A stretch of DNA of 64,000 nt from the human T2T-CHM13v2.0 reference genome, Homo sapiens, in NCBI RefSeq assembly GCF_009914755.1, contig NC_060939.1, one strand, 5' to 3'. How positions within the stretch are numbered: position 1 is the stretch's first letter; each line of letters starts with the position of its first letter. Positions 48,820 to 50,827 of this stretch are shown here, piece after piece. Position numbers and translations under genes: made by a program. The notes beneath the pieces were generated by a model. It searched no databases, had not been told where the DNA came from, and saw nothing but the letters and a program-made list of their open reading frames with translations.

Positions 48820-50024
48820 CCACCATTCTCATTAGTTTATATTTATTGAGCACTCATAATGTTCCAGCCCCCGACTCCAATGACCGCATTACCCCTCCTA
48901 CCCACTCCCATTCCCATCCCTGGATCTTTGGAAAAAGCTTCATAATCATATCTGGCCCTCAGACACAATGATATAAGGACAAATTTCTTGGGGACCCTGC
49001 AGTGTTTGGTCTTTGGCCAGTCTGTCCCTGGCACAACTACAGAAATAAATATATATATATATATTTATTAAACCTTTGCTTGTATCTGTACAATATTGAT
49101 CTCTGCTGATTGCTTAAAATAGAACCTGATTATCTCTACTACTACAGCATCTCCTAAGCCAAACAGCCCCACCACAGAGGAGGCCCACTTTCACAGACTG
49201 GCTAAGAATCCTCTAGAGCATTTTAAGTAGTTGCTCTGAATTTTGCACAGCAGTCTAATACCTACTTTTCCCTAGAGCTATTGCCCAGAGGAACAGGACT
49301 GAGGCAGAAGGGGCACTTGGGGATGATATGGAAGGATCTATAAGGCAAGTCTAAAGATTTAGTGGCCATGTCAGATGTTTGGGGAAGGGACTCTATTTTC
49401 CAGACATTTCAGATAGCCATCCCGGGCTCACCTGAGGAGTGCTGGCAAAGACAAGAGTCCCCTGAATGCACATATGGTCTAAGCGTACCTTGAGAAGTCG
49501 TGAACATTTCCCCAGAAAAGTGAAGACCCTAGAGTCCCCTCTTTTGCATTTGCTGTCGCCAGATGGTGTCTTCAGCAGTGAAGCGGCATTTCCTTTAACA
49601 ATCTGTGATTTCCTAGGATGCTCAGAGAAGGCTGGGTAATGACAGACCAACCCACCCCAAGGAAATCCTATTCAAGTCTAATGGCTAAGTGAGGAGCCAA
49701 TGGCTTCTTCGAACCTAAAACTGGCTCCTCCTCAACCACAGCTCTGGCACAGGTATGCTTCATACAAAGAGAACTACTTCCCCAGACACCGCTGGTGAGA
49801 GCTGGCCAGTGAGTTAGCCAACAGAAAAGGTTGCTGGCTCAAATGGCTGGTATAGTGTGATACCACTAATGAGAAAATTAATCACATGTTGCTGGTGGAA
49901 GGGGTGAGTGCTGGTCATGGGCTAGAGACTGGCTCTGAGGGTTTGGATCACCAGATGGATGCTGGGCTTGAGGAATACCCTCTCCAGGCAGCTGATCAAT
50001 CACTTCAGGGACCACCCAGGACTT
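48820..50024 (-). terminator. PPIP5K1: PPIP5K1 3' UTR with two candidate polyA signals
   Basis: Minus-strand AATAAA at 49069-49064 and 48847-48842. Confidence 0.7.
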
Positions 50025-50827
50025 CTAATTTATCTCCTCAGGGACCTCCTGGGCCTGCAGATCAATCTCCTCAGGGAACTCTTGGGATGGTTTATCAATC
50101 TCAGGGATGCCCTGAGATAACAGATTGATCGCAGAAGTCTCCTGGGCCAGCCTGCCAACCTCCACAGAGAACTCCTGGTATGGCTGGATGACCTCCTCAG
50201 GGATCTCTTCAGCTGGGCTGCCAACTTCTACAAGGGTTTCCTGGACCAAGCTACCAACCCCTACATGGAACTTATGGACCAGCTTGCCAACCTCCACAGA
50301 GACCCCCTGGCATGGCTGGCTGACCTCCTCGGAGTTCTCCAGACATAGCTGGCAAACTTCCTCAGAGACTTTCTGGCACAGTTGGCTGGACTTCTGGCAT
50401 GGCTGGCTGATGTGAGGGACCTCCTGGCATGTGTGGTTACCATTGTCATGGTTCTCCTGGCATTGCTGGCTGATGTCAGGGACCTTCTGACATGGCTGGC
50501 TGAGCGCCTCAGAAATGTCCTGGCATGGCTGGCTGATGTCAGGGACCTCCTGACATGGCTGGCTGACCTCCTCGTATGGCTGGCTGGTTTCCATAGGTGG
50601 CACCTGTGGGGACTGATTTGGTTCAAAAAGCTCTTGCTCCCCTTCTATGGAGAGCTCTTGTGCTCCACTCCCAGGGGTCTCCTGGAGCAGCCCAAGGCCT
50701 TGATGTTCTTCAGCCACGTGTGAATTTAGGGAGGGTTGATCACTGAAGCCAAATTGGGAGTTACCATCTACTGTAGTAGGGGAAGAAGGACCAGCACTGG
50801 ACACAGTGCTAGAAGGGCCACTGCTGT
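50025..50827 (-). CDS. PPIP5K1: PPIP5K1 (diphosphoinositol pentakisphosphate kinase 1) last coding exon
   Basis: tttacag|AC AGC AGT GGC CCT...; (Y)SSGPSSTVSSAGPSSPT ... SQPCQ repeats ... QEVPEEIN-TAG (50027-50025). Confidence 0.93.
50030..50590 (-). repeat. Coding 10-11 aa degenerate repeats (SQPCQEVPDI / QEVPEEID) in the PPIP5K1 tail
   Basis: Recurrent ggcatggctggctga on the + strand. Confidence 0.85.

What the first reader, a model, noticed from the sequence alone, without database searches (positions are those of the whole stretch)
49878..50027. PPIP5K1 stop codon interrupts a repeat unit; an intact 48-codon in-frame tail follows in the 3' UTR
Seen: after TAG (50027-50025) the same minus-strand frame stays open for 144 nt, KSWVVPEVIDQLPGEGIPQAQHPSGDPNPQSQSLAHDQHSPLPPATCD, ending at TAA (49880-49878). 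The 11-aa periodicity of the coding tail runs straight through the stop: KPSQEFPEEID / LQAQEVPEEIN / *KSWVVPEVID / QLPGE. Composition (P/Q/S/E-rich) also matches the upstream disordered tail. Inference: the TAG is a lineage-specific nonsense change (likely CAG>TAG) that removed 49 aa, or the tail is still expressed by readthrough. My unverified recollection is that non-primate orthologues end in a similar ...PPATCD sequence. The TAG-A context is not a classical readthrough motif, so a fossil tail is more likely.
Basis: partly seen in the sequence, partly recalled or inferred. Interest (0 to 1): 0.8.

Follow-up and report, generated by a model that had tools for sequence, protein, structure and literature searches.

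The report
Monkey-and-ape stop codon truncates PPIP5K1
In monkeys, apes and humans a stop codon cuts 49 amino acids off the end of the enzyme PPIP5K1; lemurs and other placental mammals still make that conserved tail, and in humans it survives unbroken but apparently untranslated just past the stop.

Summary
On the minus strand, TAG at 50027-50025 is followed by 48 open codons ending at TAA 49880-49878. The TAG is the first codon of a 33-nt repeat unit.

An open frame of this length is not unusual in itself: about 10% of stop triplets in the window are followed by at least 48 open codons. The orthologues decide the matter. I fetched 324 PPIP5K1 proteins.
- **Truncated:** 135 end at …EVP(E/K)EIN, the human stop position. 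Every named one is simian: 6 hominoid, 5 Old World monkey and 6 New World monkey genera.
- **Read through:** 189 continue past that position. Every named one is non-simian, including two lemurs, a tree shrew, carnivores, ungulates, cetaceans, bats, afrotherians and an armadillo. Most end at …PPATCD, where the human TAA lies.

In a 20-genus alignment the stop column is Q in 18. The TAG is therefore a derived nonsense change, inferred CAG>TAG. It arose after the lemur split and before the New World/Old World monkey split. Tarsier and rodents were not seen.

The lost tail is the best-conserved part of the last exon in other mammals. The human copy differs from their consensus at only 5 of 48 residues, which a simple neutral-decay simulation reproduces. 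The UAG-A context and the lack of downstream RNA structure argue against programmed readthrough. This is a real, apparently undescribed example of an ordinary kind of event.

The parts
50025..50027 (-). Annotated PPIP5K1 stop codon TAG, followed by A (UAG-A). It is a derived nonsense codon shared by monkeys, apes and humans.
   Evidence: Searches give the sequence. In one search the homologous column is Q in 18 of 20 non-simian genera (R in Mustela, a gap in Molossus). In one search, 135 of 324 proteins end exactly here.
49881..50024 (-). Fossil coding tail: 48 codons, in frame, with no stop or frameshift. It is now the first 144 nt of the annotated 3'UTR and is homologous to the coding C-terminal tail of non-simian mammals.
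   Evidence: One search gives the translation. In some searches it aligns without gaps to the horse, dog, lemur and most other tails (one extra residue in the armadillo row). In one search it is 67-88% identical to 20 non-simian tails and differs from their majority residue at 5 of 48 positions.
49878..49880 (-). TAA at the position of the ancestral stop. Most non-simian proteins end with the residue encoded just before it (…PPATCD).
   Evidence: Afrotherians, ruminants and Molossus run 5-6 residues further.
50028..50827 (-). Coding part of the last exon. It is a P/Q/S/E-rich repetitive C-terminal region with no Pfam domain.
   Evidence: One search gives the translation. One search finds 30/63-nt and 33-nt tandem periods. 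One search finds 0 Pfam families in the last-exon translation. The hub's annotation gives the coding limits.
49995..50093 (-). Three consecutive 33-nt (11-codon) repeat units. The third begins with the TAG.
   Evidence: In one search pairwise identities are 21-23 of 33, and 0 of 1019 33-mers from the rest of the 3'UTR reach 21 of 33. The same three units are present in non-simian proteins, so the repeat predates the stop.

Best explanation
A single nonsense substitution, inferred CAG (Gln) to TAG, was fixed in the last exon of PPIP5K1 on the stem lineage of monkeys, apes and humans. It arose after the split from lemurs and before the New World/Old World monkey split. It removed the last 49 residues of the ancestral protein.

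The stop lies in the last exon, so established nonsense-mediated-decay rules predict that the mRNA escapes decay. The shortened protein became the normal product.

The former coding tail now lies in the 3'UTR as a fossil. It is not translated, or only at the background level of any stop codon. It has stayed open by chance, because primate sequence changes slowly.

- **Shown here:** the coordinates, the homology of the tail, and which species have the stop.
- **Inferred:** the exact ancestral codon, a single origin of the stop, escape from decay, and absence of translation.
For: 1; of 324 fetched PPIP5K1 proteins, 135 end at …EVP(E/K)EIN.
   - Every named one is simian: Homo, Pan, Gorilla, Pongo, Nomascus, Symphalangus; Macaca, Rhinopithecus, Trachypithecus, Chlorocebus, Piliocolobus; Sapajus, Cebus, Aotus, Plecturocebus, Saimiri, Callithrix (names).
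   - The other 189 continue past that position. Of these, 179 were found by pattern and 10 were read by eye in the same output. Every named one is non-simian.
2. Lemur catta, Eulemur and Tupaia read through with Q at the stop position. So do Dasypus, Elephas, Trichechus, carnivores, perissodactyls, cetartiodactyls and bats. One change on the simian stem explains this distribution.
3; the column of the human TAG is Q in 18 of 20 non-simian genera. TAG is one transition away from CAG.
4; among the 20 non-simians, mean pairwise identity is 0.785 in the tail and 0.673 over the whole last exon. The tail was a constrained coding segment, not a chance extension.
5; in a neutral simulation at 0.05-0.08 substitutions per site, the frame stays free of stops and frameshifts in 36-20% of runs. 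At most 5 amino-acid changes occur in 70-27% of stop-free runs. The intact human fossil needs no selection to explain it.
6; the stop context is UAG-A. Passages of PMC7089771 say that readthrough of normal stops is rare, and in G418-treated cells rank UGA>UAG>UAA and C>U>A>G at the +4 position.
7; the 131 nt from the stop onward fold no better than shuffles (z +1.10; 176 of 200 shuffles fold at least as well).
8. The hub's annotation lists no transcript that splices around the TAG. All 33 entries that share the human C-terminal 110 residues stop there.
Against: - No orthologous DNA could be read. [quoted passage not shown]
- Most proteins compared are automated gene models. Such models end at the first in-frame stop by construction.
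- Tarsier, rodents, lagomorphs and colugos did not appear in the listed rows, so the older bound of the event is loose.
- The human fossil differs from the non-simian consensus at only 5 of 48 residues. That is at the low end of the neutral expectation if the stop is old: P(≤5) is 0.11 at d=0.10 and 0.04 at d=0.12. Weak residual constraint is therefore not excluded.
- The divergence values and the indel ratio used in the simulation are my own assumed figures, not measured here.
- No ribosome-profiling or peptide data for this gene were seen.
Confidence: 0.88

Rival explanations
1. The tail is still made in simians by programmed readthrough of the UAG. Near-cognate decoding could even put Gln back. 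This would give a minor long isoform that keeps the conserved C-terminal motif, and the frame would be kept open by selection.
For: After at least the whole age of the monkey/ape clade, the human frame has no stop or frameshift and only 5 of 48 residue differences from the non-simian majority. At higher assumed divergences this becomes unlikely under neutrality: P(≤5 changes) is 0.11-0.04 at d=0.10-0.12, and P(frame intact) is 0.14-0.09. The tail is the best-conserved part of the exon in other mammals.
Against: The UAG-A context is a poor readthrough context according to passages of PMC7089771. There is no stable structure downstream of the stop (z +1.10). At moderate divergences the intact frame is unremarkable. 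Three of the five human differences hit columns that are nearly invariant elsewhere: Q in 17, D in 17 and S in 19 of 20. That pattern fits relaxed constraint.
Confidence: 0.06
2. The same position was hit independently in New World monkeys and in catarrhines, or the simian stop codons differ. The truncation would then be recurrent rather than inherited once.
For: Other lineages also show altered ends in their gene models: Myotis models end early with a different sequence and a Lutra model ends 23 residues past the position. The distal tail can therefore be lost more than once, unless these are model errors.
Against: All 17 simian genera end on the same residue N of the same motif. They also share the change from …EEV-N to …EEI-N just before it. 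One event on the common stem is the simplest account.
Confidence: 0.03
3. The short form is ancestral, and the 49-residue extension was gained by stop loss in other mammals.
For: None from the calls. It is only a formal alternative.
Against: It would need separate stop losses in lemurs, tree shrew, Laurasiatheria, Afrotheria and Xenarthra, all producing the same conserved tail that ends at the same place. The alternative is one stop gain on the simian stem.
Confidence: 0.01
4. The open frame after the stop is a chance feature of the 3'UTR with no coding history.
For: About 10% of stop triplets in the window are followed by at least 48 open codons.
Against: The translated frame is 67-88% identical to the coding tails of 20 other genera, with essentially no gaps.
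Confidence: 0.01

Closest known systems
Lineage-specific stop-gain in a last exon, which shortens the C-terminus and turns coding sequence into 3'UTR. This is a general class of gene-end evolution that I recall from the literature; I read no paper on it here.
   Same: One nonsense codon is shared by a whole clade. Outgroups code through it. The stop lies in the last exon, so decay of the mRNA is not expected. The old reading frame is still recognisable downstream.
   Different: The segment lost here is the best-conserved part of an otherwise fast-evolving disordered region. The fossil is still completely open after an estimated 40 million years or more (the date is recalled, not computed).
Programmed stop-codon readthrough genes of mammals (examples recalled: MDH1, LDHB, AQP4, VEGFA, AGO1, AMD1). 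LDHB and AMD1 papers appeared in the listing.
   Same: An in-frame open extension follows the annotated stop, and its sequence resembles a conserved peptide.
   Different: The known cases typically have a leaky context (recalled: UGA followed by CUAG) or a stimulating structure, and the extension is conserved in the species that carry the stop. Here the context is UAG-A, no structure stands out, and the conservation seen is in species that lack the stop.
PPIP5K2, the human paralogue
   Same: The same kinase plus histidine-phosphatase architecture followed by a disordered C-terminal region. This is my own knowledge plus review passages.
   Different: A six-frame search of the human assembly with the last 115 residues including the tail found only the PPIP5K1 locus at E ≤ 10. 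The tail is therefore specific to PPIP5K1.

Membership tests
Clade-specific nonsense truncation with a fossil coding tail | Outgroup orthologues have a sense codon at the stop position and code through it | tested here: met
   In one search, 189 of 324 proteins read through, and all named ones are non-simian. In one search the column is Q in 18 of 20 genera.
Clade-specific nonsense truncation with a fossil coding tail | The stop is shared by a monophyletic group and absent outside it | tested here: met
   In some searches simian genera (6 hominoid, 5 Old World, 6 New World) end at the same residue, while two lemurs and a tree shrew do not. Tarsier was not seen.
Clade-specific nonsense truncation with a fossil coding tail | The sequence downstream of the stop is homologous to the outgroups' coding sequence, in the same frame | tested here: met
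   In some searches the alignment is essentially gap-free over 48 residues, with 67-88% identity.
Clade-specific nonsense truncation with a fossil coding tail | The downstream frame evolves neutrally in the clade that carries the stop | not testable with these tools
   No simian 3'UTR DNA other than human could be fetched. The human copy alone is compatible with neutrality and has changes at otherwise conserved columns.
Programmed stop-codon readthrough | A leaky stop context (UGA, or C at +4, or a known motif) | tested here: not met
   One search shows UAG followed by A. The rankings come from passages of PMC7089771.
Programmed stop-codon readthrough | A stimulatory RNA structure downstream of the stop | tested here: not met
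   In one search the minimum free energy is -31.8 kcal/mol against a shuffle mean of -36.1 (z +1.10).
Programmed stop-codon readthrough | Coding-type conservation of the extension among species that carry the stop | not testable with these tools
   This needs simian genome alignments, and none is available here.
Programmed stop-codon readthrough | Ribosome footprints or peptides from the extension | tested here: inconclusive
   The gene name PPIP5K1 does not occur in the held supplementary files of PMC7089771 (6 files) or PMC4359377 (2 files). Those tables may use other identifiers or be cut.

The most novel reading that the evidence does not exclude
Monkeys, apes and humans did not fully lose the conserved PPIP5K1 C-terminal motif. 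Instead they turned it into a conditional one. A small fraction of ribosomes decode the UAG, near-cognately as Gln (the ancestral residue). This would produce a rare long isoform carrying the …DPNPQSQS…PPATCD end. That would explain why the 48-codon frame is still intact and only 5 residues away from the mammalian consensus.
Probability: 0.06. Interest if true: 0.6.

Novelty: new member of a known kind. Interest (0 to 1): 0.35.

Why it matters
PPIP5K1 makes the inositol pyrophosphate signals that control phosphate balance. A review describes its long disordered C-terminal region as the part that binds partner proteins, citing work on the exocyst complex (passages of PMC13573144).

In the non-simian mammals examined, the last 49 residues are the best-conserved stretch of that region, which suggests an unrecognised short binding motif. 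Humans, apes and monkeys lack it.

Work on the C-terminal region in non-simian animal models may therefore involve a piece that the human protein does not have. The mouse protein itself was not seen here. Conversely, the human gene is a natural deletion experiment for that motif.

As an evolutionary event it is ordinary: one stop-gain in a last exon.

Tried and rejected
- **Pseudogene comparison:** a DNA search of the own assembly with the last exon found a single copy. No pseudogene copy was available, such as one in the nearby PPIP5K1P1 duplication, to compare the stop with.
- **Paralogous tail:** a six-frame protein search of the own assembly with the last 115 residues found only the locus itself. 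The paralogue has no such tail.
- **Literature:** none of four searches listed a paper that describes this truncation.
  - PPIP5K1 + readthrough: 2 papers.
  - PPIP5K1 + stop codon + primates: 1 paper, on duplicated genes.
  - PPIP5K1 / truncated / anthropoid, at least 2 of 3 terms: 12 of 287 listed, none with PPIP5K1.
  - HISPPD2A + stop codon: 0 papers.
  - I saw listings only. The Cell Signal 2016 paper on the disordered domain is not in the library and was seen only as a reference.
- **Readthrough data sets:** the gene name was absent from the held supplements of two readthrough papers. This is uninformative.
- **Pfam scan** of the last-exon translation found no family.
- **Reaching tarsier and rodents:** the three protein searches list only their best 120 rows each. 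Restricting candidate length brought in Old and New World monkeys, Eulemur and Tupaia, but no tarsier or rodent. The 48 further hits of that search were not shown.
- **'QLPGE…' as a further repeat unit:** rejected, because DNA identity is at chance level.

Full report
**1. The observation**

Reading the minus strand of the window, the last coding exon of PPIP5K1 ends at TAG 50027-50025. The same frame then runs for 48 further codons (50024-49881) to TAA 49880-49878.

An open frame of that length is not in itself unusual. In this window about 10% of all stop triplets are followed by at least 48 stop-free codons: 290 of 2870 on the + strand and 286 of 2987 on the - strand.

The repeat claim holds in part.
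- Tandem Repeats Finder reports a 33-nt period at 50032-50102.
- Cutting the strand into 33-nt units in phase with the TAG, the unit that begins with the TAG (50027-49995) is 21 and 22 of 33 identical to the two units before it. Those two are 23 of 33 identical to each other.
- None of 1019 33-mers from the remaining 3'UTR reaches 21 of 33.
- The following unit is at chance level (10-12 of 33). The periodicity crosses the stop by one unit only.

**2. What other species have**

The last exon is single-copy in the assembly, so comparison had to come from orthologous proteins. I ran three searches of the large protein collection.
- **First search:** it covered residues 200-315 of the read-through translation (P0001, with X at the stop) against longer proteins. 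All 120 listed rows were non-primate PPIP5K1 proteins, apart from one unnamed row (Equus, Diceros, Canis, Lycaon, Vulpes, Trichechus, Phoca). They covered 100% of the region at 77-82% identity. Their C-termini carry Q where human has TAG and end at …PPATCD, where the human TAA lies. The manatee runs five residues further.
- **Second search, with a longer upstream stretch:** it listed 108 rows covering only 75% of the region, that is, stopping at the human stop. Of these, 96 are named Homo, Gorilla, Pan, Pongo, Nomascus or Symphalangus, and 12 are unnamed. The other rows were 10 Equus and 2 Lemur catta, and the lemur rows cover 100%. One search shows that all 108 end at …EVPEEIN and that the lemur continues through Q to …PPATCN.
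- **Third search:** it used a 744-residue human-identical entry as the query, so that only proteins of 409-1302 residues were candidates. This thinned out isoforms and brought in more species. These were Macaca, Rhinopithecus, Trachypithecus, Chlorocebus, Piliocolobus, Sapajus, Cebus, Aotus, Plecturocebus, Saimiri, Callithrix, Eulemur, Tupaia, Dasypus, Elephas and many carnivores, cetaceans, ruminants and bats.

**3. The tally**

Over all 324 proteins fetched:
- 135 end at …EVP(E/K)EIN. Every named one is simian, from 17 genera.
- 179 match a pattern for the continuing tail.
- The remaining 10, read by eye in the same output, also continue past the position. Some have deviant ends: Myotis models, a Lutra model, two Mesoplodon rows, an Odocoileus row and an unnamed row.
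- Every named protein that reads through is non-simian.

In a MAFFT alignment of 28 representatives, the human fossil tail aligns essentially without gaps to the coding tails of 20 non-simian genera. The column of the human TAG is Q in 18 of them, R in Mustela and a gap in Molossus.

No tarsier, rodent, rabbit or colugo row was seen. Forty-eight hits and many hits were not listed.

**4. Interpretation**

One stop gain on the stem of monkeys, apes and humans explains the distribution. The reverse would need several independent stop losses that all yield the same tail, which is not credible.
- The event falls after the split from lemurs and before the New World/Old World monkey split. From general knowledge, not computed here, that is roughly between 70 and 40 million years ago.
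- Q is encoded by CAA or CAG, and TAG is one transition from CAG. CAG>TAG is therefore the likely change, but no orthologous DNA was available to confirm it.
- The stop is in the last exon, so established nonsense-mediated-decay rules predict that the mRNA is not degraded. This would have made the change tolerable.
- Simians also share …EEI-N where other mammals have …EEV-N just before the position.

**5. Was the lost piece important?**

Among the 20 non-simian genera, mean pairwise identity is 0.785 in the 48 tail columns. It is 0.737 in the 67 columns before the stop and 0.673 over the whole last exon. A run of tail positions (N28 to S33, Q38, P44) is invariant in all 20.

The tail is therefore the most constrained part of a fast-evolving, repeat-rich, domain-free region (no Pfam family). 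A review states that the long disordered region of PPIP5K1 mediates its protein interactions, citing work on the exocyst (passages of PMC13573144). That primary paper is not in the library.

A conserved C-terminal short motif lost in simians is a reasonable inference, but nothing here shows what it binds. Altered ends in the Myotis and Lutra models hint that the distal tail can be lost elsewhere too, unless those are model errors.

**6. Fossil or still translated?**

The human tail differs from the non-simian majority at 5 of 48 positions: K1, G16, I17, H22 and G25. Three of these columns are nearly invariant elsewhere (Q in 17, D in 17 and S in 19 of 20), which looks like relaxed constraint.

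I simulated neutral change of the 144 nt with transition bias 4 and one indel per 8 substitutions. Both parameters and the divergences are my assumptions.

| Divergence (substitutions per site) | Frame free of stops and frameshifts | At most 5 residue changes, among stop-free runs |
|---|---|---|
| 0.05 | 36% | 70% |
| 0.08 | 20% | 27% |
| 0.10 | 14% | 11% |
| 0.12 | 9% | 4% |

An intact fossil is thus unremarkable unless the stop is at the old end of its window.

Other evidence also points away from programmed readthrough.
- The stop context is UAG-A. Passages of PMC7089771 state that readthrough of normal stops is rare. In G418-treated cells they rank UGA>UAG>UAA and C>U>A>G at the next base.
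- The RNA from the stop onward folds no better than shuffles (z +1.10).
- The gene name is absent from the held supplements of two readthrough papers, which is uninformative.

I rate programmed readthrough at about 6%.

**7. Novelty and verdict**

Four literature searches listed no paper describing this truncation. The length difference is of course visible in public protein records.

It is a new example of a well-known kind of event. Its modest interest lies in pointing to an uncharacterised conserved C-terminal motif of PPIP5K1 that the human protein lacks.

Noticed in passing
window 50394-50586 (minus strand coding); alignment: The upstream 'SQPCQEVPDI'-type repeats (30/63-nt period) vary in copy number between species. 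In the alignment, elephant and manatee carry about 21 extra residues. Lemur catta, Callithrix, Ailuropoda and Mustela lack one to three units. Homo and Pongo share a 5-residue gap relative to the Old and New World monkeys.
   Followed up: partly
proteins P0240, P0243, P0254: The three colobine monkeys (Rhinopithecus, Trachypithecus, Piliocolobus) share a 3-residue insertion (WRL) in the last exon. It is absent from the other 25 rows of the alignment.
   Followed up: no
proteins P0093, P0301, P0296, P0310, P0309; homologous to window 49878-49880: The ancestral stop position is itself not fixed. Afrotherians, ruminants and the bat Molossus run 5-6 residues past …CD (ends such as YSLSH, SSFSH, DESFSH).
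   Followed up: no
proteins P0294, P0295, P0311, P0315, P0317, P0292: Myotis models replace the last roughly 20 residues with a different short end. One Myotis isoform and the Lutra model stop even earlier. These are either independent secondary truncations of the tail or gene-model or assembly errors.
   Followed up: no
protein P0232: A Symphalangus isoform scored higher than the human query against itself (432 vs 415 bits) at only 83% identity. This suggests an extra repeat copy in that model.
   Followed up: no
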